The notes under the pieces are model-generated. The model had not been told where the DNA came from and made no database searches. It worked only from the letters and a program-made list of their open reading frames with translations. Made by a program: the position numbers and the translations under genes. This document shows positions 27,734 through 59,217 of a stretch of 64,000 nucleotides of DNA, piece by piece. The first letter of the stretch is position 1. Every line of letters begins with the position of its first letter. Origin of the DNA: Carcharhinus amblyrhynchos (lineage: Eukaryota). The DNA lies in contig OZ336885.1 of assembly GCA_965287045.1 (NCBI GenBank), positions 64,542,001-64,606,000 of the forward strand. The letters are read 5' to 3'.

Positions 27734-27769
27734 TGAAATCTGTACTTTCGGTCTGACACTGCTTTACTT
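27734..27769 (-). CDS. 36-nt phase-1 micro-exon, (K)VKQCQTESTDF
   Basis: atcatctttgcattttacag|AAGTAAAGCAGTGTCAGACCGAAAGTACAGATTTCA|gtgagt; paralog of 45534-45569. Confidence 0.85.
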
Positions 27770-28659
27770 CTGTAAAATGCAAAGATGATATCAAGTTAGT
27801 TTTTCTTTTCAAAATGTATCCGGAAACTGTTGACATGTTTTTTTTTTCCTCTCGTCAGACAAAATGAACATTTTCAGCTTGCCGTGTCGGCAGTGACACC
27901 CTTCTTCTCAATTCCCTGTAAAGGCGTGTACTCATGTGAATAACGTTACAGTACTGCTGTTGAGGAATGGGAGATGACAGAATCTAAACTAAGCCTACAT
28001 TCAGGGAACTTACCTCAGCGTGTGAGCAATATAGATGTGTTTTATCCAATGCAAATGAATCCTAGACATCATGATGATACATCGTTCATTTTCGTTAGAT
28101 TAGATCAATACAAATCAGTTTCCATTTCGGTAAATCATACATTTTTGAAACACCATTATGTCGGCAGGCGCTAACTGTGCAATAAGTAAAATAAATAATA
28201 ATAATAAGAATAGGTTTTCCCATTAGAAAAAAACAGGTAGAGCTAGAGGCATTTCTGATCCGTTGTAGACAGTTAGTAGAAAAACTTGACCGACTGGCCC
28301 GTAACTTATTAACGTCTGTGGAAATGCATAGTTCGCAAGAAACAAGGGAAAAAGAAACCTTCGTTTCATGAGCAATTGTGCCCACATTTCCGATGAGTGC
28401 AGCAGCTTGAGGCGCTCAGCACTCGGGCCAGCCCTCAGCTCGTCGCAGGAGGTTACTAAGCACGCACCGTAATCGCGCGAAAAGGCTGTGAGCTGCCTTT
28501 GAGGCCCTAGTTCCAAAAGGCAGTTTTGCAGGTAAAACTGGATCACCTACTCTTATAAAAGGATTAAATTTTGTTTCCTTATTTGGTAATTATTTTAAGC
28601 AATGAAAATGACTGTTTTTTGCTTATCCAAACAACACTTTTTTAAAAAAAATTACTAGA

Positions 28660-31600
28660 ATGATAAAAGGGCAAAACAGTCATAAGAAAAACAAATACAT
28701 AACAGACAAAAGAAAAATAATGGAGAATTTATGGGTCTTAAGGATCAACAAGTTCATTTCTGTGCGGGTCCAAAAGAGACGGGTGAGATTCTAATTAATG
28801 ACTATTTCTCATTAGTATTTACTGTTGAGAAAGGAGTGAATGTTAGTGAATTTGGGGAAATCGATAGTGATATCTTGAGGAGTGTACATGTTACAGAAAG
28901 TGAGGTATTCGGTGTCTTAAGGCGCATCACGGTAGGTAAATTCCCGGGACCTGATGAAGTGTGCCCCACGACAGTGCGGGAGGCTACTGGTGGGAGGGGG
29001 GGGGGGGGGGTTGCAATTGTGCTTGCCCTGGCCGAGATATTTGTATTATCGATCGTCACAGGTGAGGTGCCTGAAAATTGGAGAGTGGTAAATGTTGTGC
29101 CTTTGATTAAAAAGGGCTGCAGGGAAAACCCTGAGAACCACAGGTTAGTGATCCTCATATCCCTGGTGGGTCAGCTGTTGAAAATATTTTGAGTGTCAGG
29201 ATATGCAGGCATTTCGAGAACAAGGACTGATTAGGAAAATTCAGGATGCCTATGTGAGTGAAAAATAATTTCGCACAAATTTGATTGAGTTTTTTGAACG
29301 GTAACCAATAGGTAGAGGAGGGCACTGCAGTAGATGTTGTCCGTATGGACCTGAGCAGTGCCATTTACAAGGTACCACATGGGAGATTGTTGCATAAGGT
29401 TAATTCCCGCGGGATCCAGCGTGAGGTATCTCAGTGGATAAAAAAAAAGGCTTCTCAACAGAAGCCAGAGGGTGGTTGCGGAGGGTTGTTTTTCAAACTG
29501 AAGGTCTGTGATCTGAGGTGAGCCTTAGGCATCAGTGCTGGGTCCTATGTTATTTGTTATTTGTATTAATGTTTTGGAAGAGAATATAGTAGGCCTGCCT
29601 AGTAAGTTTGCAGATGACATTAAGAATGGTGACATCGTGGAAAGTGAAGTAAGTTGCAATGGGATCTTGATCTGTTGGGTCAGTGGGCTGATGAATGGCA
29701 GATTAAGTTTAATTTAGACAAGTATGCGGTGATGTAGTTTGATAGATTGAACCAGGGCAGGATTTACTCAGTGAATGGTAGGGCGTCGGGGAATGGTACA
29801 GAACAAACATATCTGGCGTTACATATTCATAGCTCCTTGAAAGAGAAGTCACAACTGGGCAAAGGGGGAGAAGAAGTCATTTGTCATATTTGGTTCCATT
29901 AGTCAAAACATTGAATACAGGAGTTGGGGCATATTGTGCAAGACATTGGGAAGACCACACTTGGAATATGGTGCGAAGCTCTGGTCAGCCTATTACAGAA
30001 AGTACATTAATAAACTAGAAAGACTGCAGAACAGAAATACGAGGATGCTACCTGAACTTGATGATTTGAGTTATAAGGAGCAGCTTGATAGATTGGGACA
30101 TTTTTATCTGGAACGGAGGAGGCTGAGGGGTTACCTTATTGAGGTCTACAAAATAATGAGTGGCATATAAAAAAGGATAGCAAGAGTTTTTATAAGTATA
30201 TAAAAAGGAAGAGGCTGGCTAGGGTGAACGTTGGACCCTTAGAGGATGAGAAGGGGGACTTAGTGGTAGGGGATGGGGAAATGGCTGAGGTCTTGAATAA
30301 CTTTTTTGTTTTGGTCTTCACGGAGGAGGACGTGAAAAATTTGCCGGGTGTTAGAGATGGAAAGGTGGTAGGACTGGAGGGTCTCAATGACATTACTGTT
30401 ACTAGAGAAGCGGTGCTCGACAGACTGGAGGGGCTGATTGTGGACAAGTCTCCAGGACCGGATGGAATGCATCCGAGGGTTCTGAAAGAAATGGCGGAGG
30501 TGATAGCGGATGGCTTGGTGGTTATTTTCCAGACGTCGCTGGATTCCGGGGAAGTGCCGGAAGATTGGAAAGTGGCTAAGGTTACACTGTTGTTTAAGAA
30601 GGGTGCCAGGCAAAAGGCGGGGAATTATAGGCCGGTTAGTTTAACGTCTGTTGTAGGTAAAATGTTAGAATCCGTCATCAAGGAGGAAATAGCGAGGCAT
30701 CTTAAGGGGAATTGCTTGATAGAGCAGACGCAGCACGGTTTCGTGAAGGGGAAGTCGTGTCTGACGAATTTACTGGAGTTCTATGAGGATGTGTCTAGGG
30801 CGTTGGATAGGGGAGAGCCGGTGGATGTGGTCTTTCTTGATTTTCAGAAGGCATTTGATAAGGTACCTCACAAGAGGTTATTGCAGAAGGTCAGGGGACG
30901 TGAATTTAGGGGTAGGGTGTTAGCGTGGATAGAGGACTGGTTGTCAAATAGGAGGCAGAAAGTGGGGGTCAATGGGTGCTAGTCGGATTGGCGGTTGGTG
31001 ACTAGTGGAGTGCCTCAGGGTCGGTGCTGGGGCTTCAGCTATTTACCATTAATATCGATGATCTGGAGGAGGGAACCGAGTGTAGGGTGTCGAAATTTGC
31101 TGATGACACCAAGATTGGTGGAACGGCAAATTGTGCGGAGGGTGTGGAGAGTCTGCAGAAGGATCTAGATAGGCTGGGCGAATGGGCCAGGAACTGGCAA
31201 ATGGAATTTAATGTTGGCAAGTGTGAGGTGGTCCACTTTGGTAGGAATAATGGTAGAAAGGATTATCACTTAAATGGAGAAAATCTGCAGCAGGCGACGG
31301 TGCAGAGGGACCTCGGGGTCCTTGTGCATGAGTCGCAAAAAACAGCTTGCAGGTGCAGCAGATGGTCAGGTAGGAGAATGGGATGCTGGCCTTCATAGCG
31401 AGGGGGATTGCATATAAAAGTAGGGAGGTCTTGCTCCGGCTGGACAGGGCATTGGTGAGGCCGCAGCTGGAGTACTGTGTGCAGTTTTGGGCGCCGTACT
31501 TACGCAAGGATATTTTGGCCTTGGAGGTAGTGCAGAGGAGGTTTACTAGGCTGATGCCGGAGTTGAGTGGGTTGAGCTATGAGGAGAGGCTGAATAAACT

Positions 31601-32360
31601 GGGCTTGTACTCGTTAGAGTTTAGAAGAATGAGGGGAGATCTCATTCAGACGTACAAGATGATGGATGGGATGGATAGGATAGAGGTGGAGAGACTCTTC
31701 CCGCTCAGAAAGGACAGTAAGACTCGGGAGAACAGCCTCAAGATAAAGGGGGGGCGGTTTAGAACGGAGTTGAGGAGGAACTTCTTCACACAAAGGGTGG
31801 TGAATCTCTGGAATTCTCTGCCCGTTGAAGTAGTGGAGGCTACCTCGCTAAATATTTTTAAGACGCGGGTTGATGGGTTTTTGATAAGAGAGGGGGTTAA
31901 GGGTTATGGGGAGAGAGCCGGAATGTGGAACTGAGCCACGACAGATCAGTCATGATCTTATTGAATGGCGGGTCAGGCTCGAAGGGCCAGATGGCCTACT
32001 CCTGCTCCTATTTCTTATGTTCTTATGTTCTCATATATTTTCCCAAATGCAGAAAAGTCTAAAACTAGAGGACATTGATTTAACGTGAGAGGGGAGAGAC
32101 ACAAAAGTGTTCAAACTGACATGTTTTTCACATAGAGGATGGTGAGTTTCTGCAACAAGCTGCCAGATGCGGTAGTAGAGGCGGGTACAATTTTGTCTTT
32201 TGAAATAACATATAGATAATTATAAGGATATGATGGGTAGAGAAGGCTATGGTCAAATGTAGGAATTGGGATCAGGTTAGTGTTTAAAATAAATGACGGC
32301 ATAGACAAGTTGAGCCGAAGGGCACGTTTCCCTGTTGTAAATCTCTATGATTCTATGAGT
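28660..32360 (+). mobile_element. Old CR1 LINE split by a nested younger CR1 (old parts 28660-30165 and 32030-32360)
   Basis: GKFPGPDEVCP, SKFADDIK, RPHLEYGAKLWS; resumes after the insert with ttttcccaaa...ctaaaactagaggacat; tail tctatgattctatga. Confidence 0.9.
30166..32030 (+). mobile_element. Young 5'-truncated CR1 LINE, ORF2 RT nearly intact (one stop, two frameshifts)
   Basis: ORFs 30224-30982, 31024-31398, 31383-31934 with NYRPVSLTS, LDFQKAFDKV, KFADDTK; (ttcttatg)n tail. Confidence 0.97.
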
Positions 32361-33964
32361 CTATTTATTGAGTATGGGATTGATTCGATATGTGAAAATG
32401 AAGAAACGTTCCATTTCGTACAATTTTGTGAAAACTTTTTTTTTTAGATTCGTGGATCAATCGGGGAGAGTTTACCATTTTAACGCAAGGGTGGGCGAGG
32501 GGAAGCGTTGTTAACCTCTACGGGATGTTCTGTTTCGCGGCAAAGCGATCTGAAGAATTACACGGGGAAAGTAGGTACTGGTAAGGTGGGGAAGGGGAAA
32601 AGCATGCGGAATGACTGAGAGGCGGAGGGGATAAACTTTGGATTTTGCATGTTGTGCGATTTTTCTCTGCCAGTATCAAAGTCTCAAAAAGAACGAGATT
32701 TAAGACCCAAATGAAAACAAAAAATGCGATGTTCCAGTGGTGGCACAACATAATTCCTGATTTTCAGCTACACTGGAAAAAGGTACTACCGAGTTCACAT
32801 CAGCTTACAGGAAAGTTGAATACGTCGTCTTAAGGGATATGCATTCCTAAAATATTTGAATTAGCCAATGTTCATAATGACCAACGTTGCATCAGTAAGA
32901 CTCTTAACGTTAGGATAAAGATTCCGGGATTTTAAGGGATACGATTTCCTGAAGCATTTCAACCAGTTGCGTTCCAAAAGGGACAACATTATAAAAAAGT
33001 GTTAATAATTTTCAAAAGTCTTAGAAACTGTTGAAATACATTGTGAAATCCAAATGTTGAAATTCTTTTCAGACATAGTTATCCATTTTACAATAGGTGA
33101 ACGATCATATTTAATGATTTTTTTAATCATGATAGTGTAATTAAAAAAGATTTTACCATTGATTTTGTTCAGATAATGTGTAGTAAGACATGTGTTAAAT
33201 CATCTGTTGCCTCGATACATTGTAGCTAGGCCAAAAAAACACGTGAACATTAATAAGGGCAAAAGTTCAGATAACTCCAGCGCACGTGATGGAGGTGGCA
33301 TCACAAGTACAGCTTAGCGATTCAGGACTAACCATTTTGCGAAACTAGATCGGAGGCTTACAATTGGCGCTCTTTCAATGCATATGCACACGCGCATGGA
33401 ATTCCGTGAATGACCAAAGTAATCTTGCATTTCAGGTCGGGAGTTGCAGGCTAATAATACGGACGTGTGTGAAAGTGGACATCTAGATTTTACACATCAG
33501 CATCACATTTGTTGCAGCTTGATATTTCAGGCATATTCAAGATCTAAATTAACATTTAGTAAATGTCCACTATTGGACACACAATTAACGTGAAGCAACA
33601 TTTCTATCTAAGAAACACGGCGCATAGTACACACATGTAGAAATGTGACGTGGTGGGAAATCGATGGCAAAAAATGTATGTTGAAATTCAGATTAGAAAA
33701 AAAACAATCTGAACTAGAGTTCACCAGTTGTCGCAAACGATGTTTCTGCATGTTACGTCCACTAATTGAACAGTTAAACATGCAAGTTACAAGCAATGAG
33801 AATTCACACCACCCAGATCGTCAAAGTTGCAATCTCATTGAGACAGAGGTGAAAGCAGAACATTGTCTTAAAATGGAAGGTCGGTGCAAGAGAGGGAACC
33901 ACTTCATGCAACCATTATATGCACTGATAGGCAAGGTGGTGGAAGGCTACCTGGAGCTCCATTT

Positions 33965-35330
33965 TTAAGAATATAAAAACTCGGAGCAGGAGTATGTCAT
34001 CTGGCCCCTCGAGCCACTCCCACCATTCAATAACATCATGGCAGATCTTTCTTTTGAAGACTCATCTCCATTTGCCGCCCCCCCCCCCCTCCACAACTCA
34101 CCATAACCCTTATTTCCTTTACTGTTCAAAAATGTATCCATCCTTGCTTTAAAGAACATTCCAAAAAGATATCCTGAACTGCTTCACTGAAGGGGAATTC
34201 CAAGATTCACAATCCTTTCTGTGAAGATGTCCCTCCTCAACTCGGACCTAAATTACTTTCCCTTATTTTGAGGCTACAATCCACCCTCCCCCCCCCCCCC
34301 CCACCCCACCCCGCAGTCCTCCAGTTCTACATTCACCCGCCAGTGGAAACAACTTTCCTGCTTCGATTTAATCTAGTCCCTTCATAATCTTATTTGTCTC
34401 TATAAGATCTCCCTCTCCTTCTTCTGAATGCCAGCCTACTCCATTTCTCCTCATAAGCCAAACCTCTCAACTACGGAATCAACCTTGTGAATCTCCTCTG
34501 AACCCCCTCCATCGCCTGTTTATCTTTTCTCAAGTAAGGTGACCAAAACTGTACACAGTACTCCAGGTGGGGGACTATTCAGTAGCCACTTAACCTCGCT
34601 GTTTTTAAACACTATATCTCTGGCCATGAACGATACAATTCCACTTGCCTTATTGATTAACTGCTGCACCTGCAAACCAACTCGTTGGGACTCCTGTACA
34701 AGGATACCCATGTCCCTCTGCACAGATCTTGCTGCATTTTTTAATCATTTAAACAATATTCATTTTGTTGTTTTTCCTACCAGAATGGATGACCTCACAT
34801 TTATCAACATTATACTCCATCTGCCAGTCCCTCGCCCACTCACTTCGACTATCTGCCGGCTTTCGACGAACTCTCCACACTTTGCTCTGCCACCCTTACA
34901 GATGACAACGATCTTAGTGTCGTCTGCAAATTTTGACACTACACTTCATCTCCTACTCCAAATCATCTGTGGAAATCGTAAACATTTGCGGTCCCAGCTC
35001 TGATCCCTGAGGCCACCACCCCCGCCCTTCCACTCGTCACAGATCGCTAACCAGAAAGAGAAAAAACACCCACTTACCCCCACTGTTTGTTTGTAGTTAC
35101 TAAACTAATCATCTGTACATGTTAATGGGTTATCCATAACATTGTGCACCTTTATCTGACGTAACATTTTTCGTTGCCTTCTGGAAATCCAGATACACCA
35201 GAACCACAGGTCCCGCATTGTCCAAAGCACATGCAGTATTCTTAAAGACTTCCCGAAAATTAGTTAAACATGACTTTCTCTTCATTAACACGTGCTGCGT
35301 CTTATCAATATATACTTTTTTTTATCCAAG
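33965..35330 (-). mobile_element. Decayed CR1 LINE 3' part
   Basis: QRDMGILVQES, FKARMDTFL, CR1 tail ggagcaggagta. Confidence 0.9.
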
Positions 35331-35720
35331 GGCAATTTAACGTATATTGCCTTGTAAGTTCTGAGTTTCAGTCCCTCAGACATGCTTTGTTTTTTTTTAA
35401 GAACAACATTCCAGCGGAAAGAAAAAACATGTGAACTTTTCTATTTGGTGCGCAATTAGAGAAACTTTCGCCCAGATCAATATGATGTTAAAGTTGACAT
35501 CCTGATTACTCCAAATGTGGTAACTGCTAGAATAATCGATACACTTGCTACAAAATAATGACACTGAACAATTATTCCTTATGCACGACAGCAGCAATTG
35601 GAACAAACGCCCCACTGTGATGTTCAAGCAATATACATTCATTCATTCCTTTGCAAAATGATTCATCACTTGTGACATAAAATTCCAAGAATCAAATCGT
35701 CATGCAGCTGAATCGCTTAC

Positions 35721-35747
35721 TTTTCTCAAGTTCCGCCACCTCTGACT
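35721..35747 (-). CDS. 27-nt phase-1 micro-exon, (K)SEVAELEK
   Basis: ttcttccttgacag|AGTCAGAGGTGGCGGAACTTGAGAAAA|gtaagc. Confidence 0.85.
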
Positions 35748-38700
35748 CTGTCAAGGAAGAAATTAAATTCAAAGGATAAAAATGTTAATTTGTAAGAAGG
35801 GAAAACATACACAACAATTAAACTGCTTCATTAATGCTTGACTCCTTCTCCACTGTCCTGGATGAGTGCAGGTGCCCCAGGTGTGCGTGGGCGTTCCCTC
35901 CTGGAATGTGATTAAATAAATAAAACAATTTGCGCCACAATTGCGCAGAAGGTAGAAGTTGCTTTTCGCAAGTTTGCACTGCGAGAACACATCCAATTAA
36001 AACAAAAGGATTTCAATCATTAAATTTTAGCGATGAAGACACGTTTACGTTAATATTTACTGTTAAATGGATGGAAAGAATAAAATTTGTCTCAAAAAGA
36101 AAATATGTATTATGCAGGAAGATTCCTATACGGACACCCATTTTTCCCCAACACAGGATGAAATTCACGAAACTGCTAAAAGTAGATCCTTCCCACCCCT
36201 AGAACTTAATCGAATGATTTGAATTATGACCTTCAACGATCTGAGCACGGACCATTCCCGCCATTCACTCGGGTTGGGCTCCACTGCACAATCATACTTG
36301 ATTCATCTAGAGTTTCCACGGACCGAATCTGACAAATTAGAAATGGCAACTCCCCACCCTTAGCATTCCCACCCCAATTTGCCCTGATCAACATGATCAT
36401 TATCGAAAAGCCTACATTCTTGAGATTCCCATCACTGCAAAATTTGTGCTCACCAGTATCGGCACACCACCAAACACCCAAAATACGCAACTAAATGTCT
36501 GATAATTCAGCGTTCAGATACATCTCATATCCGAAGACCAAAAGGAATCTTTGGCGCTCATTTGCATGCCGAACCTTCGTCGCTTCAATGCCCGGTCTCC
36601 CCAAGTGCACTTAAAACCACATATTGCCCTCGTCATGTGAATTCACCTGGGTGTCCCAAATACAAAAAACATAACTTTAACACTTATGGGCATGTGGCAC
36701 CTTCACATTCGGTTTTGTCAATTTAAAACATTGTTTCACTATCTGTGGTCCGCTATCTACGATTTTAAATGATTCTGCCGCTGGATCGGCGACCCAATCT
36801 ATGGTCTCGACCTTATTTGGCTTGCTTAAGGGATATCAGTTCACAGACTAATTTTAGTTTTCTCCTTTCCTCAGGAGGAACACTTGCTACTTTCATCGGA
36901 GACAATTTGAATATTTGGGAAACAGTATCATGCATTTTTGATTTCTTTTTCACCCAAGGTAATTTTTGTTAAATTTTGATTCTTCGGAATATCATAGAAA
37001 CTCTATGAAGGAAGATTCAAATCACAACAATGCAATGGCGATTCCGACTCTGCCATACCTGTGAGAGCCACTGAAGTTCAAAATTACAGACAGGCATTCC
37101 CGCTGACAAGAAATCTCTGCAAGTTTCTGAAATTGTGATTCATAATTGGAATTGTGACATATCTACATTACAATCGCTCAATATAATCTGCCGGATTCCG
37201 GAAAGATTTAACCTCTAACACCAGCGAGCTGCACAAATGCCGACGCAATATCTAAGAACATTTCACCCAAAAACCACAACACTCTTCAAAAACATTCAGA
37301 TTAAAATAGGAATCAAACTATATCATGTAACTCCAAAAAACCTGCGACGGTATTTGAGTCAATTGTTGCTCGGACATTGCGGTCACCATAAATGAATAAA
37401 AAGTATCTTTATGAGTCGGTAAACGATTGCTCTAAAAAAAAGACATGCTTTCATGCGACCAACAGCTTATTCAAATATGCTGACTGGGCAGTTGGAAATG
37501 CGCTGCACCAATTCCTCCCTCAGTGTTTGTGGAGCTTTCACAATACGTTTGCGGTCTCCTGACGGACAGCACTTGAAGGCCCCAGTGACTTATTACTGCT
37601 TCCGAGGCAAGTTACTCTTCTACTGAATGTACTTGACAGAAATGATGTACAAGTGGCACTGAATATCATTGACTTCATTACAGACATTGTTGGACTTTTC
37701 GTTGTATATACGCCAATTGACAATTTCACACCAGTGATAAGTGAAATTACTTTCAAATTCGAGTTTTGTTTACACTTGATTTCAATTACACCATATGGCC
37801 CGTTGGAATGAGTGGGGTATTGATATGCATCTATGAATTCGGCTATAATGAAACTGCCCCACACCTGCAATGAACATCTGTATATTGGCGAGTGTTTAGA
37901 ACATGACATGGGCGGAATCGAGCCACATCACGATCCTGGGGACGAATTTATTGAACATCCGCTTATAGAGTTAATATATGCGGCATTTGTAATCGAATGA
38001 CAACTTCAGGCAGATGTCGGAAGAAAGTAAGTTTGCATCGCTTATCGAAGTGCATAACTAATGTAATTAAAATGTATGTTTTGTCATCTACGTTAGCATT
38101 GTATTTAACAAGGGAAGGGATTTGGCTGGCAATAAATAAATATCAATATTATCTTCAGTAATCCTGCAAAATGCAGGTACGAATGTAAAAAGGGACGTGG
38201 AGAATATTGGAAAGTTCCGGGAGAAATGTGTAATATTTGTGTCACATACTCATACCAATTTTCAGAAGGGAGGGGCTGCTGCAAAATCAGCACTTCTTTA
38301 ATCCAACCCGAACTTCGACTGAGAAAGATATAGTAAGTTTTTTTCTACGAGGTAAGTTCCATGTTTAATGTGTAGTATGTTATTCTGAGGCATAGCATTG
38401 AGACACAATAATAATGTGGGTTTTTTTAGAGCTGGTTTCGTGAAACTGCTCACTTCAGAATTACTAACATTAGCTTTAATCGGACGAACTGTGAACTGCT
38501 CTTCCGAATTGGCTGTGCCCACAATATGCCCCACAAGATTTGTTGGAGTTTTAGAACAATTTTAATAGCGGATAATGATGATGTCATAGAGAAATGATAT
38601 GCATCTATCACTGTCCAGAAATTACAACATCCTCAAATAAATGTTGCTGAGCAAATGGTCGTTCCAAATCATCAATTCCCCTTCTCCTACTTAAATTTCC

Positions 38701-38929
38701 TTCAGCTTATGTCATACTGCTCATTTTTTTTTGAAACTGTTCCTTAAGCTTGAATTAAGTTGACTTGATCTGACATGTTAATATCATTGCATTGGCACTC
38801 ATTGGACTAGATTATTTTTTGAGCACTGTGCCGTCAAGGCATACCGTTCAGGGATAAGGGAGGGAGTGCGTGCAGGTTGCACTGTTACACACAAAGCTAC
38901 GGTGAAAGAAAGATCATATCAATGTGAGA

Positions 38930-46493: not shown

Positions 46494-46619
46494 TGGCCGA
46501 ATTTTCTTTCCGTCCGCAAGAGAATTTTAGCTGGCAAGTGACGGACGTTCGAAAGGCTCCTTGAACTCCGGACGAATTTTCCGGTTTCAGGACGAAAGAG
46601 GCCAGACAATTCCGCCCAT
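46494..46619. mobile_element. Possible short MITE with imperfect terminal inverted repeats
   Basis: tggccgaattttct ... agacaattccgccca. Confidence 0.3.
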
Positions 46620-46679
46620 AAGATGGCAAGTGCAGAAGGTGTCCTTTCAGCCTGTCAATCCTGCACCGACAGCAATCCT

Positions 46680-46940
46680 ACCCAGGACCCACCGTCGTAA
46701 TGCCATGAATTCACTTTGCTAAACCACAAGAGACTAAAAGACAATTTAATATAGTCAATCGAACTAACATGCAAATCGTTGGACTGTGGGCAAAAAAATA
46801 GGAACACCCAAAGGAAAAAAAACACGCAGACCCGGCGAAAACGTGCAAACTCCACAAACTATTGAGTCAAGTCTGGAGTTGAGCCCTCTTTCCTGGACCT
46901 GTAAGGCAACAGTGCTAACTACTGCGCCTCAATGACACCC
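46680..46940 (-). mobile_element. HE1-like SINE
   Basis: acgtgcaaactccaca...gtaaggcaacagtgctaactactgcgcc. Confidence 0.8.
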
Positions 46941-47699: not shown

Positions 47700-47995
47700 T
47701 GGATGGCACGGCGACAAAATGATTTGCACTGTTTTTAGTACTGCTGCCTCACAGTGGCAAAGAATTCGGCCGGATTCTCTCCTTTGGTCACTGTCTGTGT
47801 GGAGTTTGCACGTTGTCCCCGCGTCAGTGTGGGTTTCCATTAGATGGCTCTGGTTCCTCCCACATTACAGTGATGTGCAAGTTCGGTGCATTGGCCATAC
47901 TATGTGGATCCGCACAGGTGGCAGAATGTGGCGTCTCGGAGATTCTCAGAGTAACTCCATTGCAGTGTGAATGTAAGCCTATCTGTTACTAATAC
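47700..47995 (+). mobile_element. HE1-like SINE
   Basis: ctgctgcctcacag...ctgtctgtgtggagtttgcacgtt...gtgtgggtttcc. Confidence 0.85.
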
Positions 47996-49649
47996 ATAAA
48001 CTGTTTTAAATCCTCACGTCTTTGTTACTTCAATTAATAATCAAGGGAAAAGAGAAATGTTCCATCGGCGCAGAAAATGACGCCAGGTATGCAAGCTGTG
48101 TTAGATTCTCTCATACCTAGTCCACGTCAGCTTAGAGACAATTTGCGTATGCCATCTTTTGGGACCTGACCTTCCAAAAGCATTTGCACGAGCCAAGTTG
48201 CTTGATGATCAGCAATGCATCAGGGAAACTCTTGAAATTTCGATAAACATTGGAAGAACAATTGCCATCTAAATCGGTCTACTTTCCTGAAGCGTTTGTG
48301 CAAACCGAGTTACATAAGGTTGGACGTTTCATCAGGGGTCCTCTTAAAACTGGGTTAATAGTTAATCCTATTTTATTGCAAATTCTAAATGCAGAAATTT
48401 GTCCCAGAAACTGAAATCCATTTCACAACTTGGCGGCAAACATTTTGAGGGGAGCATTTGTCATGACAAAGTTGCCAAGAAAATATTTCACTTTATGTGG
48501 TTTATTTATATGTTAAACAGCTTGTACGAAAGAAAAGACAAAAACATGTCTGTTGTCTGTGCGCGCTGCAGCTTGAGGGGTGGGGTGGGGTGGTGGGGGG
48601 GAGGGTGGGGTGGCGAAGCACAGTGAAAATATATATGGGCAGAACCTCGTTGAACAACTGCGCAAGATCGGACGTTTCAGACAATTACAGCTCAGCGCTT
48701 GACGAAAGACAGCGTTCCGAAACTCGGTCTGTGATTCAAATCTGAGCTCTGTGAGTTTTTGTGCGCACGTGCTTGGACTTCATTGACTGATGTCCCGCAG
48801 ACATGGGCATCGCTTAATCAACGTCACGTGGCATTTTAGGAACATGTTACAAGCCAATATTTTTCACATGTGCGAATATGAACATCTGGATTTTCAATAT
48901 TAACAACATATTGGATACAACTTAACGTGCTAGGCAAAATTAAAAAAAAACACAAGTAACAGTTGGATTATTAAAAAAAAGTTTTTTTTTCACCTCAGGA
49001 CGAAATGGAAGCTTCTGGATTGTAATTAATCAAGCAGTCGTAGCATATTAGTATGCAGCTTAGAGCAGATATAACAGGAAGTGAATGGAATGTGAAAGTT
49101 ATCACTGAAGGAATTTAATATGAAGGTAACGAAGTTTGTTGCAACAAACGAAGTGTCTCCTCTTTACCCAGGGTCAACATAACTGGAATGAAAGGTTAAA
49201 CATTAATTTTGCCCCCTCACCAATCCACATTTCGCTGGGTGCAAACCGACATTACAGGCCAATTGCCGCTTTTACAGGAGCCTTCAAAATATCGTGTTTC
49301 AAACTAGTTGTAAACGCAGAGACCATGTTAGAAATTATAAATATTTCGCATGCTTCATTCAGCAGCTCTTTCTGACCCCGTGACTATCTGCGTCACGTAG
49401 AGGTGGAAAAAAAATTGCAGAAACTAGACAAATTTGCTCAACTTTCTTGGCCATTCTTTGTCTTTGTTTTAATAAACAAAGAACAACGAATCAGTTTAAT
49501 TGCCAATGCTGCAAAGTCATTAGCATCCAAAACAGTCCCTTTCGAAAGCTGATCTCATGAATTTAACAATGCTTAATTCCGACGCACAGCCCGTGTCATC
49601 TCTGCGTGTGTGTCTCACACAATATGATTGACAGCATTCTTATAAGTCC

Positions 49650-50570
49650 TAAGACGTTAACTGAGGTTGACTGGCCATGCTATGTTGACCCTAATGTCAG
49701 GGGATTACATTATAAACGCGTGTTGTTGTGGTTGTGGGATCTGGGTGGCATTGTGGTCACTACAGACTGGATGGGCCGAATGATCTCCTCCTGTACTGCA
49801 TCGATTGTATGATTGTATGAGTCTTTGGCTAAGAGAATAGATTAGACCAATAAATGAGCGGCAGAAAAATAGCGTACAGATAGAACAGTTATTAAATACA
49901 GCGCATGCATTTTGAAATCTAGATAAATGAATAGATTACAAAAGTAAGCTAGTGCTGATGGAACTAAAAACACTACAGGCGCACTTGTAGTTTTGAGTAC
50001 AGTTTTGGTCAGTTATAAGAGGACAGATGCAGTGGCATTGTAGGCAGTTTAAAGGAAATTCGCCAATTTGATTGCAGAGATGGCTTATTGCCATCTAAAG
50101 GCAGATTGATCAGTTTGGACCTGTATTCGCCAGAATTTAGAAGAATGAGAGGGGGAATCAAATTGAGGTATAGAAGATGATAAAAAGCAAAAAAAAAACT
50201 TGGACGGATCTTCCTTTTGTGAGACATTGTAGGCCGAGATGTTATCGTCTTGGAATAAGGGATAGCAAATTTAAATATATTTGAGGAGATATCCAACTGA
50301 GCATTTGTGCGTGACGGAACATTACAGCAGGATGCCAACGAGGATTGTGCCGAATGGTAAGAGTCGTGAATAACAACTTCGCCAAAAGCGTTGTGAATCT
50401 GTGAAATTCGCTACCCAAAGAGTGATGAATGCTGAGGCAGTGGAGTTACACATATTTTTATTCTTTAACAAAAGGTTTTGAAAGGTTATGGCGAGAAAAC
50501 AGAAAAGTGGGAATGAAGGGCCTTTTCATCCATGAACGAACGACAGATGTATTAGGTGGGTTGACATACC
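49650..50570 (+). mobile_element. SINE 3' remnant (~49650-49820) followed by a very old CR1 3' fragment
   Basis: gatgggccgaatgatctcctcctgtactg; gaatttagaagaatgagaggg; gttgtgaatctgtgaaattc. Confidence 0.65.
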
Positions 50571-51409
50571 TAATTCTCTCGGAAATCTTTCGTTGTTGTG
50601 AAAAATGTCAAATGACATTAATTAGTTAAGAACACTAACTGAAAAACGTCGATACCCATGTGATAAGCAGTGAGGATTCACATCACGCAGATCGTTAAGG
50701 CTGCATGATCGAGACGGAAACACCCTCTTTCCGTACATTTACGTTTCCAATGGGGAGAGTCAGCGAAAAGAGGAAATTAGATTATACAAGACAGAGACTC
50801 ATACAACTTCATTAGCTATGGATTCCCCGCCCTGCTACCGCTCAGAAAGCGCTCATTCATGCACTTACGTCATATCCGAACTGATGATAACACATTTCAA
50901 AAGGCATGTTTATGTTTTCCTGATAGAACATTTCGCTCAAAACCTACACAGTGTTTTTGATGGACCATTCATCCCATTGGCTGACAACAATTTCTGGCTT
51001 GTGTGCCTTCCAACTTGTACTCAATTGCAGAAACATAATGGCATCCCTCGTCCTCACTTTCAACCAAAATCCTGTGCATTAAAATGACTATTTTCCACCA
51101 ATTTCGTCATCTGCCAACCCTGAACACACATTCCCCAGACGATACTTACCATTCGGCAGCAATCCTCGTTGGCATCCTTTTGTAATGTTCCATCACGCAC
51201 AAATGCTCAGCCCCTTGCCATGACACTTTTCCTTCCAACATCAATAAGTGCGGCACCAACCCCTTCAATTACCCCATCGTCATCGTGCAGGAGAAACACT
51301 GTTACACGTCCTTTAATTTTGATTGTTGTGTTCCATGTTCCCAATGAAATCTCCACCGTATTCGATAATCAGTGTTTCACTGATGATGTTGATGATGACA
51401 TTTTCCATA

Positions 51410-54400
51410 GTCGGAAATAACCATCTGGTTCACTCACGTCCTTTAGGGCAAACCATCTGCCATGCTTACCTGGCCTGGCCTAATTGTGACTTCAGAGCAA
51501 CAGTAAGCTTGCTGAATCTCAATGGCCCTCAGAAATGGCCTGGCAACCATTCAGTTGTATCATTCGCTAACAAGTATCAACAAAAAAAAACCGGATGGAA
51601 CGACTAACATCAGCCTGGGCACCATAAAAGAAAACAGCAAATAATCATCCCCGACAACTCTGCAAAGAACGTCTTTTTAACATCTGGGGGCTAGTATCAA
51701 CATTAGGGAGCTGACTCACGTATTAGGCAAACAACAGCCTGTTATTATCATTCTCATGAAATCGTATCTTACAGATAACATCACAGACAGCAACGTACCA
51801 AGATTTGTTTTGACCCAGCAGCAGCACTGACCCAGCAAATGTGTTCATATTGTGGTGTATAGTCAGGAGCGATTTGCCCAAGGAGTCCTTAACATTGAAT
51901 CTGGAAGCCGTGAAGTCTCGTTTGAGGATTAATATTGCCAAGGAAACCCGTTGCTGTTTACTATGTACAGTCTTTCTTCGGCTGATTAATAAATAGTCCA
52001 TGTTGAACAACACTTGGAGGAAGCACTGAGAATGGGAAGGGCGCAAAATGCGCTCTTAGTGGGGCATTAATTGCCCACTACCAAGAGTGGCACGGCAGCA
52101 GCACAACTCATCGGGCTGGCCAAAATCATAGAACTGATACTTTGGGTCTGCAGCAGTTGGTTGAGGATCCAACAAGAGGGAAATAAAACATACTTGAACT
52201 CAGCCTTACCAATCTGCCGGCTGCAGATGCACCTGCCCATGACAGTATCGGTCACAATGACCATCACACATTCTTCTGGAGACGAAGTCCTGCCTTCACA
52301 TTGGGAATTACCTCTAAATGTTGTGTGGCACTATCACCATTATAAATGGAACTGACTTCGAACTGATCTAGCAACCCAAGAATGAATATCCAAGATGGGC
52401 TGTGGGTCATCAGCAGCAGCGGAACTACACTCCAACAAATCATGGTATGGCATATCCCTGACTCAACCATTGCTATCAAGCCAGGGGATAAACCCTATTC
52501 AATGGAGAGTGGAGGGGGGCATGTGAGGAGCAGCAGCAGGCCTAACTAAAATGAAGCGTTATACTGGTAGCTACCAAACACAAATACGTGCATGCCAAAT
52601 GGCAAAAAAAGAACAAGTAATAAACAGAGTTAAGCGATCCCACAACGAACGTGTCGGATAGAAGATCTGCAGTTCTTGAACGTCCAGTCGTGAATGTTGG
52701 TGAACAATTAAACAATTCGTTGGAGGAGGAGGCACCACAAGTATCCGTGCTCTCAATGATGGAGGAGACCAGCACGACAGTGCAAATGATAAGGCTGAAT
52801 ATTAGCAGCAATCCTCAGCCAGAAATGCAAGGTATATAATCCATCTCGGCCTCCTGAAATGGTCCTCAACATCTCAGATGTCAGTCGCAAGTCAATCCGA
52901 TTCGCTCCACGTGATATCAAGAAATGGTTGCAGGTACTGAATGCTATGAAGGCAATAGGCGCTGATAACACTCTGACAACAAGACTGAAGACTTGTGCTC
53001 CAGTACTTGCTGCTCCACTAGCCAAGTTTTTCCAGCATAGTTACAGAACTGGCTTCTGTCCGACAACGTGGCAAATTGTCCAAATATGTCCTGTGCACAA
53101 AACGGAGGACAAATCTAACACTGCCAATCAGTCTATCCTTGATCATCTGTAAAGTGATGGAAGAGATCACTGAGAGTGCTATCAAACAACACCTGTTCAG
53201 TGTTGCACAGTTTATGTTTTGGCAGAGTCACTTAGGCCCTGACCTCATCACAGTTTGGTTGAAACGTGGAAGAATCAGCTGAATTCCAGAGATTAGGTGA
53301 GAGTGACCGGCCTTAACATTAGGACGCATTTCATCACGTATGGTTTCAAGAATCCCGAACCAAATTGGAGTGAATGAGTAAATGAAGAGAAACACTCCGC
53401 TGGTTAGATAAATATCTGATACATGGGCAGAATGGTACAGTTGTGGAGGGTCAGTCGTTCCTGATCCAGGGCACCTCTGCAGGAAACCCTCAGGGTCGTG
53501 TCCTAGACACTAAAAATCTTCAGCTATTTCATCAAAGACTTCCCCCGCCATAAGGTCGGAGGTGAGGATGTTAGCCAAAAAATTGCACAATGTTCAGCAC
53601 CATTCGCGACTCCTCAGACACCGAAGCAGTCCTATTTTTGAGGCAAAAAGGTAAGGACGATATCGAGGCTTGTTCTGACAAGTGGCAGGTAACATTACTG
53701 CCGCACAAATGACAGGCAGTGACCATCATCAATAAGAGACACTCTAACGGCAACCACTTGACCTCCAATGGTGTTATCATCACTGATTCCTCCATTGTCA
53801 ACATGCTTGTCGTTATCGATGATCAGAAGCTCAACTGATCTCACCAAATAAACACAGTGGCTACAAAAGCAGGTTAAAGGCTGATAATTTTGTGGCGAGT
53901 AATTCCCCTCCTGAACCAAAACTTTACCACCATCTACAAGGCACAACCCAAGAAGGTTATGGCACACTGCATACTCGCATGAATGGGTGCAGCTCCAGCA
54001 TAACTCAAGAAACTTGACACCACCCAGGAAAAAGCAACTCACTTGATTGGCGCCACATCACAGGAATCCATTCCCTCCACCACCGACGCTCAGCAGCAGC
54101 AGTGTCTACTGTCTACAAGATGCACTGCAGAAATTCCCAAAGTTCCTGGGACGCCACCTTCCAAATCCACGACCACTTCCATCTAGAATGGGAGTAGTAG
54201 CGCATACCTGGGGTCAACATCGTCTGCGGTTACCCTCCAAGCCACTCACCATCTTGTCTTATAATATATCGCCATTCCTTCACAGTCAAAGTCCTGCAGT
54301 TTTCTCGCCAATGGCACTGTGGGTCAAACAGCAGCCCATGGATTGCAGGGATTCAAGATGACAGCTCGCCACAACCTTCTCAATTGCGTATAGGTATGTA

Positions 54401-54452
54401 CAATAAATGCTGACCTGCCAGCGACGTCCATGTCCCGCAAATGAATTCTTAA
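51410..54452 (+). mobile_element. Long decayed CR1/L2-type LINE (endonuclease + RT + 3' end)
   Basis: KAIGADN...LKTCAPVLAAPLAKFFQHSY; ends aataaatgctgacc...gaattcttaaaaa; interrupts the A/C homology. Confidence 0.85.
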
Positions 54453-54964
54453 AAACCTACAACGTAGAGACTAAATATGGCTTACTATTTGTTGATTCAT
54501 TCAGCAAGTGAATGATAACTATTTCGTTTTCCAAGCAATCTAAACACGTGTCCTTCTTATATCATGCCGTTTCTGTTTCTTCCCTGTGGCAACTGCTGCA
54601 GTGAAGCTCAGTTCAAATTCGAGGACAAAAATGTTTTTTTTTCACGTCATCTTGGTGTCTCAGCCCATTAAAATCAATACACATTAATGAAATTTTTATT
54701 GAGGCATTTTCTCCTCCAATGTAATAATGCGCTTTCATTTACATTCAATAAAATGCAGTATGCACTCCGCCAGTGTCCCTATGAAGCAGGCTCTCACTTC
54801 CCCATACGTTTACCTTTCAAGAGACTTGCCTTCGTTCTTCTATCAACATTTTGTGAACGCGATATACAAAGGACAAATTGCTGCACCCAGGCCCAACTGT
54901 TTCAACACATGTCATGCAGCAGCACATCGAGGTTAATTTACGCCCCAGTTAAATATGTACCTTG

Positions 54965-55930
54965 AACCCAGTTATCTAGGGTCAGTTGCGTAAGTCCAAA
55001 TATCTCCAACTCATTCATCAAAGGCCTTCCCTCCGTTACAAGCTCTGAAGTAGGAAAGTTCGCCACGTTTGAACAATGCTCAACAGCGTTCACAACACCT
55101 CAGATACCAAAGCTGGGCATGTTCAAAAGCAAAATTATCTTAACAATTTCAATGCTTGATCTGGCAAGTGGAATGTCACATTAGCGTCAGACAAATTCCA
55201 GGTAATAACCACCAGCAATAAGAGCTACTCCATCCACCAATACTTGGTGTCCAATTGTCTTACCAATACCGAATCCACGACTGTCAACATCCTTGAGGTC
55301 ACCATTGACGCACTGGACGCTCTAATTAAAAACAGTGCCGACAAGAGCACTTGAGATGCCAGGACGTATTGCATCGAGTAATCTTGAGAATCCTCAAGAC
55401 TATCCACCAGTTGTAAGTCGCAAGTCAGGGATGTGATTGAAAACTCCCAATATGCCCGGGTGGGTGCAACTCCGGAAACACAAAATAAAAGCTTGACGTA
55501 ATCCAGGACAAAGCAGAATGTTTGGCAAGCGCCACATCAACAAACATTCAATCCCTCCGCCACCGACACTCAATCACAGCAGTGCGCAATACCGACAAAA
55601 TACACTGCAGCAATTCATCAAAAATCCGTAGAGAACACCATCCAAATCCACCACCCCTTCCATCAAAAAGGACAAGGACACGGGTAAATGGGAAGACGAC
55701 TATCTATTTTGACACGATACGGTATCTTCCACTCCAAGCAACTCACCGGCCACACTTGGGAATATATCCCTTTTCTTTTTCAGTCACTGGATCAAAATCT
55801 TGGAATTCCCACCCTAAATGCATTGTGGACAAACCACAAAACATAGACACAACGAATGAAGAAGCACGCCACCACATTCTCAAGGCAAACAACACATCGG
55901 CAATAATATCTGCCAGCCACCGGCGCTCAT
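54965..55930 (+). mobile_element. Second, more decayed 3' fragment of the same LINE family
   Basis: ttcatcaaaggccttccctcc, caatccctccgccaccgacactc, ccaaatccaccacccctt match 53530-54400. Confidence 0.8.
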
Positions 55931-56659
55931 TTTTTTTTGTTTGAATTCCTGCGTTTTTAAATGGGACAACATTAGCTAAAATTGGCTTCATTTCACCGAG
56001 AACTAATAGGCCGACAGATAGAATAGTGTGTACATTTTGGTCGAATTTTAAGTGAAAATGTAAATGTGTTTGAACCAGTTCAAGATTATTTGCAGATTAT
56101 TAACTGGTTTGGACGATTTGTGTTATGTATATTTGCATAAATCACAATTGATTCGAACGTGTTGTTAGAATTGCAACAGTGAAATTTTCAGACACATTTA
56201 AGTTCTTGAGCAATTTTGAATGACTGGTGTTGAAGTCACTGGTTCCTTTGTTGTCATAATTTAGAACCACAGGTACCTCTTACAGATGTACAATCGCCTA
56301 TCTATAACAGATTTTTTTTTGTCCGTTGTGACATGGGAAACAGGATGTTAGGAATTCGGAACTGAAGCAGCCAATTCAACTGTTGACGCCGCTGTATCAG
56401 AGTATGTCTAACTTATTCCCGGTCTCAGATCTACACCACTATGTGGTCTCCATGTTTGTTTGTTTTTAACATAAATATACCTATGTCATTCTTGAAACCA
56501 TTTAATGACTCAGGCTTCGGAATACAATTAGGCAGCGAGTTGCAAATTTCACTAACTTCAGCGAGAATTAAGTTCAACTCATCTCAATTCGAAATTTTTC
56601 GCCTCTTAACTGTAAATGTGACTTCTTGCTCTCTCATATTTAAAGAGTTTCTGCAAATA

Positions 56660-58418
56660 CATAAACTGCAAAAGAGTAACAATGGAGAGAGTAGGGCCTT
56701 TAACGACCAACAAAATCATCTTTGTGCCGAACCATAAGAGCTGGGCGATATTCTAAATTAATATTCCTCATCCGTGTTTACTGGTGAGAAAAGCACGGTT
56801 GTTAGGAAGCTTGGGGAAATAAATATTAATGTCTTAAGCAGTGGAAATATGACAAAGAATGGTGTGCTGGAGGTCTTAAAGCGCACCAAGGTAGACAAAT
56901 CCCCAAGACAAAATGGAAGGTATCCCAGGGAGTTGTGGGAGACTAGGGTGGAAATTGCGCGTCCCCTAGCTGTGATATTTGAGTTATCGGTAGTCACAGA
57001 TGAGGTCCCATAAAATTGTGTGGTGGGGGGGCGGGGGGGGCGGCAAATCGCGTGCCTCTCATTTGAAAGGGCTGCGGTGGATAAATTGTTGGAAGACATT
57101 TTGAAAGACAGCATCTACAGGCATTGAGAAACTCAAGAACTGATTTGGGACAGTCAGCATGGCTTTCTGAGTGTAAAATCAGTCTCGCAAATTTAACTGA
57201 ATTTTTGAAGGGGTAGCCAAGAAGGTCGACAAGGGTAGTGCATTTGATATGGTCTACATTGAATTTAGCACGGCCTTTGACAAGTACCGCATGTTCCGTT
57301 GTTGTATCAGGTTAAATATTACGGGATCCCGGATGAGGTATCTAAATGGGTGCAAAATTGGCTTCTTGGCAGATGCCAGAGGATGGTTGTAGAGATTTTA
57401 TTTCAAACTGGAGGCCTGTGACCAGGGATCAGTGCTGGCTCCGCTGTTATATTTCTTATTTATGAATGATTTGGATGAGAATACGGGAGGCACTGTTAGT
57501 ACGTTTGCAGATTAGAGAAAGATTGGTGGTGTATTTTTTGTGAACAAAGTTATCTCCAATTGTAACAGGACTTTGATCAATTGTGCCAGTGGTCTGATGA
57601 ATTGCAGATGCAGTTTAATTTAGACAAATGCGAGGTGACGCGTTTCAGTGGATTGAAGGACAGGTCTTAATCAGTTAATGGTAAGAAGTTGGGGACAGTT
57701 ATAAACAAAATAAAAACAAGGAGCACATGTGCATAGCTCCTTGAATGTGCAGTCTCAGGTGGAAGACTTTCAGCATGTTTGGTCTCATCGATCAGAACAT
57801 TGAATGCAGGAATTGGAATGTCTTGTTGAAGTTATACAATTCATTGGTAAGGCCACACTTGGAATATTGTGTGCAATGCAGAGGACACTATTATAGAAAG
57901 AATATTATTAAACTAGGCAGAGTGCAGAAAACATTTACTAGGATGCTAATGGCACTTGATGAATTGAGTTATAATGAGGAGTTGGATATACTGGAACATT
58001 TTTTTCTCTGAAGTGTCGGAGGCTGAGGGGTGATCTTATAGAGATCTACAAAATAATGAGAGGCACAGATCAGCTTCACAGTCAATATAATTCCCCAAAG
58101 GCAAGGGAGGCTAAAACTGGAGGGCATAGGTTAAAGGTGAGAGGAGAGAGATACAGAAGTATCCAGAGGGGCACTTTTTTTGACGCAGAGGGTGATGAGT
58201 GGCTGAAACAATCTGCCAGAGCTAATTGTCGAGGCGGGTAGAATTCTATATAAAAAAAAAACATTAGGTGGTAACAGGGATACAATGCGTGTAGAAGCAT
58301 ATGGGACAAATGCGGGCAATTGGGATTGATTTGATTGTTAAAATAAAACGGCATGAACAAGTTGGGCCGAAGGGCCTGTTTCCATGCTGTAAATCTCTGT
58401 GTATCTTTGATTCCATAT
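56660..58418 (+). mobile_element. Old CR1 LINE, same subfamily as 28660-32360
   Basis: [17 protein letters not shown], 3' tail gttgggccgaagggcctgtttccatgctgta. Confidence 0.92.
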
Positions 58419-59190
58419 AATTTGTGAATAGTTTACAGCACCATCCAAAAAAAAAATCAACATGAGCGAAATTTATGTGTTATTTGTGTATTGATCAGTG
58501 GCAGGTGGGTACAGAGTTTTGATTAGTATCAGATCAGACACAAACTGATCAAACGATGAAGAATGTGACAGGTGTAGAACGGTTGAATGCTGAAAATTGT
58601 TCCAAAAGTTATTTGTAAAATAATGAGCTCATGCGTCAGTGACGGAAAGCCAACCGCAACTATCAAAAGCTAATTTCAAACGGAACTATTCGATCACTTC
58701 CTTAAAAGGGAAATATATCCCTGTCAAAATGACATAATTTCTGCATGACAACGTTTAATTGTAAACCATCAATAATGACGAAAATATCAGTGAATTTCCA
58801 GGACAGTGAAAAATGTCACTCTCTTATGATTGTGCGTGTTTGCCAGGCAATAATAGGAAAAAAAAACGAAATCTGCATGAGGCAATTTAATTTCATGTCA
58901 TGCAACAGCAGCATCACTTCTGCAGAGGAATTGGCATAATTTCAAAAGCAAACTCTGGTTTCATTCCTTTGAGTGAGAGGATGGGAGACTGTGAATAATC
59001 TATTTGCTTCCTTCAAAATGGCAACGCTTAATAATACGTTTTATGCATTATATGAAATAAGTAAAATTGATGTTCGAATTTAATTTCAAGCAATCCTCAT
59101 TTCTTTTCTTTTTTTTTCCGTTCTGAATTTATTTACAACGTTCAACAAGAAGTTCAATTGACCACATCAGCATCAAGCAGAATCCCTTAC

Positions 59191-59217
59191 TTTCCTCTTT
59201 TTCTGCCGCCACTTTCT
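59191..59217 (-). CDS. 27-nt phase-1 micro-exon of coiled-coil gene, (x)KVAAEKEE
   Basis: tttctcccttgacag|AGAAAGTGGCGGCAGAAAAAGAGGAAA|gtaagg; paralogous to 35721-35747 and 8890-8916 with the same length and splice sites. Confidence 0.8.

What the first reader, a model, noticed from the sequence alone, without database searches (positions are those of the whole stretch)
27734..59217. Coiled coil lengthened three heptads at a time by very large intragenic block duplications
Seen: three collinear blocks (A, B, C) share the same ancient TE fossils. A and B each have one 36-nt exon position and one 27-nt exon position; C has the 27-nt exon and is cut off by the window edge. 27+36 = 63 nt = 21 aa = exactly 3 heptads. 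I found no large exon between blocks. Inference: these are repeats within one gene, each adding 21 residues at the cost of roughly 18-23 kb of intron. Prediction: a third 36-nt exon with an atcatcttt.catttt.cag acceptor lies a few kb right of the window.
Basis: partly seen in the sequence, partly recalled or inferred. Interest (0 to 1): 0.75.

Follow-up and report, generated by a model that had tools for sequence, protein, structure and literature searches.

The report
Megabase shark gene of heptad micro-exons
The repeated blocks are slices of what is likely one 1.7-megabase cartilaginous-fish gene whose roughly 250 predicted tiny exons would spell a very long coiled-coil rod ending in a B30.2/SPRY domain, a rod that likely changes length when whole 13-34 kb exon-plus-intron blocks are copied.

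Summary
They belong to a chain of about 250 predicted phase-1 micro-exons (mostly 21, 27 and 36 nt). The chain runs over 1.7 Mb of contig C16 and ends in a single B30.2/SPRY exon. No other B30.2, Ig or RING exon was found inside it. The 36+27 pair is a true three-heptad unit (110 of 144 hydrophobic residues at a/d), but only 33 of 72 modules are heptad multiples. In the window only one interval adds 21 residues; its neighbours add about 39-45. The predicted third 36-nt exon exists, but 21 kb right of the edge. Beyond it lie nine young 13-22 kb copies; relatives appear to have about 1 and about 4-5. The B30.2 falls in a clade apart from TRIMs and butyrophilins whose named members are all cartilaginous fish. 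A head-to-head sister gene and a 1,697-aa chimaera protein share the modules. A secreted, cysteine-stapled rod is my best guess. There is no RNA evidence and the first exon was not found. It works like chicken BG tails, on a far larger scale; nine literature searches found no description.

The parts
59191..59217 (-). 27-nt phase-1 exon, family A (block C)
45534..45569 (-). 36-nt phase-1 exon, family B (block B); a/d positions L, C, I, S
35721..35747 (-). 27-nt phase-1 exon, family A (block B); with 45534-45569 gives one clean 21-aa, three-heptad unit
27734..27769 (-). 36-nt phase-1 exon, family B (block A)
16370..16387 (-). 18-nt in-frame-shortened family A exon, intact splice sites
14334..14360 (-). 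27-nt family A copy whose donor GT is changed; likely a dead exon
13403..13420 (-). 18-nt family A exon, intact
12472..12489 (-). 18-nt family A exon, intact
10899..10916 (-). 18-nt family A copy that lost its pyrimidine tract; weak or dead
8890..8916 (-). 27-nt family A exon, intact
4300..18200 (.). local sub-array of 0.9-2.7 kb units (75-83% identical) that multiplied the family A exon seven times
16148..64000 (.). old collinear blocks A (about 16.1-35.5 kb), B (about 35.5-59.0 kb) and C (59.0 kb on to about 93 kb, past the edge)
1..64000 (-). the whole window lies inside the predicted gene. Parts outside it, in window-relative coordinates (C16 position = value + 64,542,000), all minus strand: most 5' exon found 898988-899098 (111 nt); mostly 21-nt exons 257719-722800; nine young 36+27 units 89145-241206; third 36-nt exon 85122-85157; 27-nt exons 66048-66074 and (weak) 64043-64069; 36-nt exon -2970..-2935; 36/27/15-nt exons on to -804913; terminal B30.2 exon -806260..-805743

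Best explanation
The blocks are tandem copies of exon-plus-intron modules inside what is likely one 1.7-Mb gene, predicted to encode a rod of about 2,300 coiled-coil residues capped by a B30.2 domain and likely secreted. SHOWN in DNA: about 250 same-strand micro-exon candidates with lengths divisible by 3; one terminal B30.2 exon; block copies at three age levels (62-75%, 75-83%, 92-94% identity); hydrophobic and Cys residues on a/d positions. INFERRED, mechanism of growth: because every exon is phase 1 at both ends, unequal crossing-over can add or drop any run of exons with their introns without a frameshift. Selection keeps splice sites, exon length and the a/d stripe, while the other codons drift at about intron rate. 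36+27 nt adds three heptads, 21 nt one, and 36+27+27+15 nt five; 39-aa modules would insert a stutter. INFERRED, function: a parallel coiled coil about 340 nm long, stapled by disulfides between d-position cysteines after secretion, carrying B30.2 heads as binding or cross-linking tips in a mucus, gel or fibre. Exon skipping would give a ladder of lengths.
For: Strand asymmetry: 222 minus-strand candidates inside the gene against 6 plus-strand in 1.86 Mb at score 18 or more, and 0 minus-strand outside it. The model was trained on these exons, but out of sample it found 16 plus against 1 minus upstream of the sister B30.2, 15 of the 16 being 27 or 36 nt. a/d enrichment: 110 of 144, expected 45.5, P about 3e-28. 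In 11 old exon pairs (two young pairs and two pairs with the dead copy left out) acceptors and donors mostly exceed flanking intron identity. Only 8-10% of equal-sized intron windows survive without a gap or changed end, yet the 36-nt position is intact in all five old lineages and the 27-nt position keeps an intact 27-nt exon in all four. SPRY hit at E 2.4e-13. A 15-member clade at 100/100 support, apart from TRIM and BTN. Callorhinchus XP_042192744.1 is 1,697 aa of coil plus the same B30.2. Its two annotation versions differ at 15 gaps, 11 of them 9 or 12 aa. RefSeq isoforms of smaller members include 9-aa differences in three species. The 36-nt profile hits the chimaera coil 17 times against 2.2 in shuffles. 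Secretion: hydrophobic N-termini in 3 of 8 NCBI models, two R-x-K/R-R motifs in the chimaera N-terminus, and no 19-residue membrane span in any of 10 members.
Against: No splice junction was observed: every exon here is a prediction. The chain has 2 junction stop codons among 249 exons, so it is incomplete or holds false exons. Exon bodies are no more conserved than introns: 63-81% in old pairs; 15 of 63 against 854 of 3,823 variable columns in the young copies, P 0.68. Only 33 of 72 modules are heptad multiples, or 24 of 63 without the nine young copies. The window's own exons have a weak core (polar a/d residues; 18-nt exons nearly all E/K). The first coding exon and a signal peptide were not identified. 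5 of 8 NCBI models lack a hydrophobic start. Only hydropathy was used, no signal-peptide predictor.
Confidence: 0.55

Rival explanations
1. Same giant gene and same growth by block duplication, but the protein is cytosolic: a soluble cytoskeleton-associated rod, like the soluble chicken BG tail ('zipper protein') or the enterophilins (recalled).
For: B30.2 domains of TRIMs and butyrophilins are intracellular (established; PMC12841164 passages). 5 of 8 NCBI family models lack a hydrophobic start. No signal exon found here. A soluble BG tail displaces tropomyosin (PMC5938342 passage).
Against: The three models with a hydrophobic start come from chimaera, skate and carpet shark. Cys is confined to one core position (22 of 53 21-nt exons at position 4, none elsewhere). 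One of the models without such a start has an N-terminal part matching dispersed repeats, so some are 5'-unreliable.
Confidence: 0.25
2. Only part of the array is used. Many duplicated exons, including those in the window, are skipped or nearly neutral passengers, and the working protein is much shorter.
For: Exon sequence drifts at intron rate. 3 of 7 copies in the window sub-array are damaged. Copy number seems to differ freely among relatives. Most annotated family members are 175-460 aa.
Against: Old copies keep length, AG/GT and open frame at about 30% intron divergence. The a/d stripe persists across 28 distinct units. The chimaera model has about 1,500 residues before its B30.2.
Confidence: 0.12
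3. It is a butyrophilin/BG-type membrane receptor with an Ig ectodomain and membrane span that I missed at the 5' end.
For: Heptad micro-exons followed by B30.2 is the butyrophilin layout (PMC4046983 passages). The best PDB sequence match is BTN3A1 B30.2, E 1.8e-30.
Against: No Ig motif or butyrophilin Ig tblastn hit in 1.86 Mb, and no Ig motif in the next 80 kb. No Ig family among 92 of 147 minus-strand ORFs at 874-964 kb (repeats dropped). The sister gene starts head-to-head by about 950 kb, closing the space. No Ig domain in six family members scanned. The tree separates the clade from BTN.
Confidence: 0.05
4. The blocks are separate tandem paralogous genes.
For: Block-wise collinearity alone fits gene duplication; the family does form a six-gene cluster on C16.
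Against: No B30.2 or other large exon between blocks. All exons on one strand and in one phase, up to a single terminal exon.
Confidence: 0.03

Closest known systems
Chicken BG genes (butyrophilin family; PMC4046983 and PMC5938342, passages read)
   Same: Long coiled coil built from many small exons that begin with a split codon, variable exon number between genes and haplotypes, alternative splicing, gene cluster.
   Different: BG has an IgV domain and a membrane span, 13-38 repeats of 21 (18, 24) nt and no B30.2. Here: about 250 exons, added 27/36/15-nt module types, a terminal B30.2, no Ig found, 1.7 Mb.
Butyrophilins (BTN3A1, BTN2A1; PMC12841164 passages; PDB hits)
   Same: Heptad repeats followed by a terminal B30.2 exon.
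   Different: BTNs have a few heptads, IgV/IgC and a membrane span. This B30.2 lies in a separate clade.
TRIM-B30.2 proteins (TRIM39/69, A33-like)
   Same: Coiled coil plus B30.2; RefSeq names family members 'TRIM39-like' or 'A33-like'.
   Different: No RING in this gene (motif and tblastn scans) and no RING or B-box in the six members scanned; B30.2 only 24-43% identical to the hits.
Callorhinchus milii XP_042192744.1 'nuclear-pore anchor-like' (automatic model, 1,697 aa)
   Same: Same B30.2 clade, long coil, 9- and 12-aa modules, core cysteines.
   Different: Orthology is not shown: it groups weakly with another C16 paralog. No paper among those searched cites the accession.
Enterophilins (recalled, not read; 0 occurrences in the ten papers listed)
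   Same: Recalled as long leucine zipper plus B30.2 without Ig.
   Different: Recalled as mammalian, cytosolic and far shorter; not tested here.

Membership tests
Butyrophilin / BG | Extracellular IgV (with or without IgC) exon | tested here: not met
   No Ig motif or tblastn hit in the 1.86 Mb covering the gene, no Ig motif in the next 80 kb; none in six relatives. The 5' end is bounded by the sister gene, but the first exon itself was not identified.
Butyrophilin / BG | Transmembrane exon before the heptads | tested here: not met
   No convincing hydrophobic phase-1 exon (one 117-nt candidate at 772209 looks intronic); best 19-residue hydropathy 1.6 or less in 10 family members.
Butyrophilin / BG | Coiled coil from small phase-1 heptad exons | tested here: met
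   (predicted exons; no RNA).
Butyrophilin | Terminal B30.2 exon of the BTN clade | tested here: not met
   B30.2 present but in a separate 100/100 clade among 39 domains (midpoint root, limited sampling).
TRIM | RING and B-box at the N-terminus | tested here: not met
   No RING motif or tblastn hit; none in relatives.
Chondrichthyan coil-B30.2 clade (unnamed) | B30.2 in the clade of XP_042192744.1, XP_055510696.1, XP_038668997.1 | tested here: met
Chondrichthyan coil-B30.2 clade (unnamed) | Coil built of 9- and 12-aa modules | tested here: met
Secreted protein | Cleavable signal peptide | tested here: inconclusive
   3 of 8 NCBI models have a hydrophobic start. For this gene several candidate first exons exist (for example at window-relative 915173), none singled out.
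Expressed gene | Spliced transcript joining the micro-exons | not testable with these tools
   No RNA holder listed.

The most novel reading that the evidence does not exclude
Cartilaginous fish have an undescribed family of megabase genes, hidden from annotation by their micro-exons. They secrete disulfide-stapled coiled-coil rods hundreds of nanometres long with B30.2 heads, as a structural or defensive material. Rod length is retuned between close species by copying 13-34 kb blocks, three heptads at a time, with the same block amplified or homogenised separately in sister lineages.
Probability: 0.35. Interest if true: 0.87.

Novelty: new variant of a known kind. Interest (0 to 1): 0.72.

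Why it matters
If expressed as predicted, this is among the largest vertebrate genes by span and exon count (for comparison, recalled: titin about 363 exons, dystrophin about 2.2 Mb). A sister gene of about 0.9 Mb sits head-to-head, and relatives are annotated only as fragments or under misleading names. It shows protein length evolving at a cost of about 300 intronic bases per coding base in these blocks, with dated duplication layers and apparent copy-number differences between close species. That makes 'is coil register under selection?' directly testable. It also points to an old (chimaera plus elasmobranch) B30.2 lineage outside TRIM and butyrophilin that may work outside the cell.

Tried and rejected
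RNA evidence: no RNA holder listed. The four runs laid behaved as genomic DNA of relatives, with unspliced contigs across introns. AlphaFold model of the B30.2 from six sequences: pLDDT 43, not used. Pfam scans of flanking minus-strand ORFs: 150 of 229 ORFs left of the window gave only reverse-transcriptase and sub-threshold hits; 106 ORFs at -900 to -800 kb gave SPRY plus LINE domains; 92 of 147 at 874-964 kb gave nothing real. A genome-wide V-set search was saturated by large Ig-type clusters on other contigs, so it is uninformative. The chimaera N-terminal 396 aa found no match in this genome. Word-index protein searches were crowded by TRIMs: no clade member recognised, only the chimaera model and its older version, one member among the 120 listed. 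Search for the first coding exon by hydropathy, CpG island and homology to the sister gene was inconclusive. Collagen-like reading (exons are multiples of 9 nt) rejected: Gly is 1%. Triadin- or troponin-like charged micro-exon gene rejected once the B30.2 end was found. Sequencing error as the source of the young copies' divergence is unlikely: substitutions dominate, only 156 of 3,979 columns are gapped, and Ti/Tv is 0.87, similar to the between-species spectrum. No complex prediction was run; oligomer state is untested. Literature searches found no description of this family; the library lacks most subscription papers and supplements were not searched, so an accession in a proteomics table could be missed.
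Full report
OBSERVATION. The window lies at G000:C16:64,542,001-64,606,000 of a 2.92-Gb genome; homologs place it among cartilaginous fishes. Coordinates outside 1-64000 below are window-relative. The quoted acceptor occurs twice, in front of 36-nt minus-strand exons at 27734-27769 and 45534-45569, against 0.22 expected. 27-nt exons lie at 35721-35747 and 59191-59217. Blocks are collinear at 18-23 kb offsets, with 62-75% intron identity. Most shared sequence is unique intron; one shared segment pair is about half dispersed repeat. Of 57 window ORFs of 100 aa or more, 2 hit Pfam, both LINE reverse transcriptase.

THE PREDICTION. A third 36-nt exon is at 85122-85157, 21 kb past the edge, with a diverged acceptor. 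27-nt exons at 66048-66074 and probably 64043-64069 lie in between. Another 36-nt exon is 3 kb left of the window. Beyond 89 kb are nine young units spaced 12.9-21.8 kb, 4.5-8.3% divergent in a star-like tree, each with one 36-nt and one 27-nt exon.

THE WHOLE GENE. I fetched 1.94 Mb of contiguous sequence including the window and scanned both strands with a splice-site and composition model trained on the first exons found. At score 18 or more there are 222 minus-strand candidates between -806 kb and +885 kb, 0 outside, and 6 on the plus strand of 1.86 Mb; lengths are 21 (53), 27 (80), 36 (67), 15 (11) and 11 others. Training makes this partly circular. Out of sample, however, the model found 16 plus-strand against 1 minus-strand candidates upstream of the nearest paralogous B30.2, 15 of them 27 or 36 nt. 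The chain ends in an open 172-aa SPRY/B30.2 exon at -806260..-805743. No other B30.2 of this type lies within it. The most 5' exon found is 111 nt at 898988-899098. It is weakly homologous (E 0.007) to a 120-nt exon of a sister gene that runs the other way from about 950 kb to C16:66.44 Mb. The span is 1,705,358 bases. The working chain has 249 micro-exons and about 2,300 aa, with 2 junction stops that show it is imperfect. It is 20% Lys, 16% Glu, 13% Leu and 3.6% Cys (on a 221-exon version).

HEPTADS. In 28 distinct 36+27 units, 110 of 144 L/I/V/M/F/C residues fall on positions 1, 4, 8, 11, 15 and 18, against 45.5 expected (P about 3e-28; positions were chosen after inspection, which a seven-fold correction does not affect). 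But of 72 intervals between 36-nt exons, 30 are 21 aa (nine of them the young copies), 3 are 35, 7 are 39, 11 are 30, 9 are 12 and 12 are other lengths. Some of the odd lengths are probably missed exons. In the window only 45569-35747-27769 gives 21. Cysteine sits at the d position: 22 of 53 21-nt exons, none elsewhere in them, and 22 of 72 36-nt exons.

SELECTION. In 11 old pairs exon bodies are 63-81% identical, like their introns (58-76%), while acceptors are 68-92% and donors 80-100% identical (two young pairs and two pairs with the dead copy left out). Only 8-10% of intron windows of exon size keep both ends and no gap, yet the old exon positions remain intact. In the young copies exons vary as much as introns (15 of 63 against 854 of 3,823 columns). 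Inference: selection acts on splicing, length and the hydrophobic stripe, not on exact sequence. This also leaves room for the rival that many exons are passengers.

RELATIVES. Contigs of related organisms were laid on the first young unit and the unique sequence beside it. In X3 and X5 (one sample, about 6.5% divergent) depth is 11-15 in both parts, and one 8,994-nt contig crosses the boundary, pointing to a single copy. In X1 (about 3% divergent) depth is 34-68 against about 10-14. X2 is too shallow to read. The tool warns that depth is not copy number, so this is suggestive only: about 1, about 4-5, and 9 here.

FAMILY. A profile of the six C16 B30.2 domains retrieved single-domain relatives named from Scyliorhinus, Leucoraja, Narcine, Cetorhinus, Hemiscyllium and Callorhinchus, plus two unnamed assembly fragments. 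With the C16 domains they form a 15-member clade at 100/100, apart from 24 TRIM, butyrophilin and related domains (midpoint root). None of six scanned has Ig or RING. Callorhinchus XP_042192744.1 is 1,697 aa of coil plus B30.2. Its two annotation versions differ at 15 gaps, 11 of 9 or 12 aa, and RefSeq isoforms in Narcine, Scyliorhinus and Callorhinchus include 9-aa differences. These are automatic models, not proof of splicing. Three of eight NCBI models begin with a hydrophobic stretch.

MECHANISM. Shown: same-phase micro-exon candidates, block copies of three ages, the a/d stripe, one B30.2 end. Inferred: unequal crossing-over copies symmetric exons with their introns, at about 300 intronic bases per coding base. 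The product is a rod of about 340 nm (0.15 nm per residue, established), likely secreted and disulfide-stapled, with B30.2 tips, and exon skipping varies its length. I put 0.55 on this full reading, and about 0.9 on 'one giant coil-B30.2 gene grown by block duplication'.

COMPARISON AND NOVELTY. It works like chicken BG tails, which are built from 13-38 repeats of mostly 21-nt exons with a split first codon (PMC4046983, PMC5938342; passages read). It also resembles butyrophilins, which put a few heptads before a B30.2 (PMC12841164 passages). It fails the Ig, membrane-span, RING and B30.2-clade tests, so it is a member of neither family. Nine searches (listings only, except the three papers named) found no description, and six accessions gave 0 papers. 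An unchecked note of this scan from another shark genome reached a similar reading for 21-nt exons (e1-8029684); it is not independent evidence. Verdict: a real feature and a new variant of a known architecture on an extreme scale; interest 0.72.

Noticed in passing
C16:65,492,438 (window-relative 950438) to 66,436,908, plus strand; L189-L202, L184: Head-to-head sister gene of about 0.9 Mb with 21-nt exons at its 5' side, 27/36-nt exons at its 3' side and a B30.2 58% identical to this one. Only its two ends were fetched.
   Followed up: partly
C16:60.45, 61.08, 63.07, 63.15 Mb (L185-L188): Four more intact B30.2 exons of the same clade (35-46% identical); their upstream exons were not fetched.
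   Followed up: partly
window-relative 89145-241206 (L015-L030): The young units share the same broken retroviral-type insertion (integrase, RNase H and RT domains in the first copy; shorter in one copy), so it was probably copied with the block. Observed only.
   Followed up: partly
L015:6013-9352: In run X1 single contigs of 316-865 nt have depth 24-49 against about 10 in unique sequence, suggesting about 4-5 near-identical copies, unlike the 6.4% divergent copies here. In X3 and X5 depth stays at single-copy level. Possible separate amplification or homogenisation.
   Followed up: partly
window 8890-16387: Three intact 18-nt exons plus one 27-nt equal 81 nt, the same as three 27-nt exons, so this module would again be 39 aa if the damaged copies are skipped. 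May be chance.
   Followed up: no
window 30165-32048, 63419-64000, 28692-30165, 56654-58065: Block-specific LINE insertions, some young (92-94% identical to other copies).
   Followed up: no
G000 contigs C9, C41, C46, C53, C73: Most of the 150 B30.2 matches scored lie in tandem clusters on these contigs and are only 27-40% identical to this gene's domain.
   Followed up: no
ESM Atlas: Three clusters of 1,277-1,802-aa proteins with SPRY (55-137 members, chordate, one named 'isoform X51') resemble the chimaera protein; their species were not shown.
   Followed up: no
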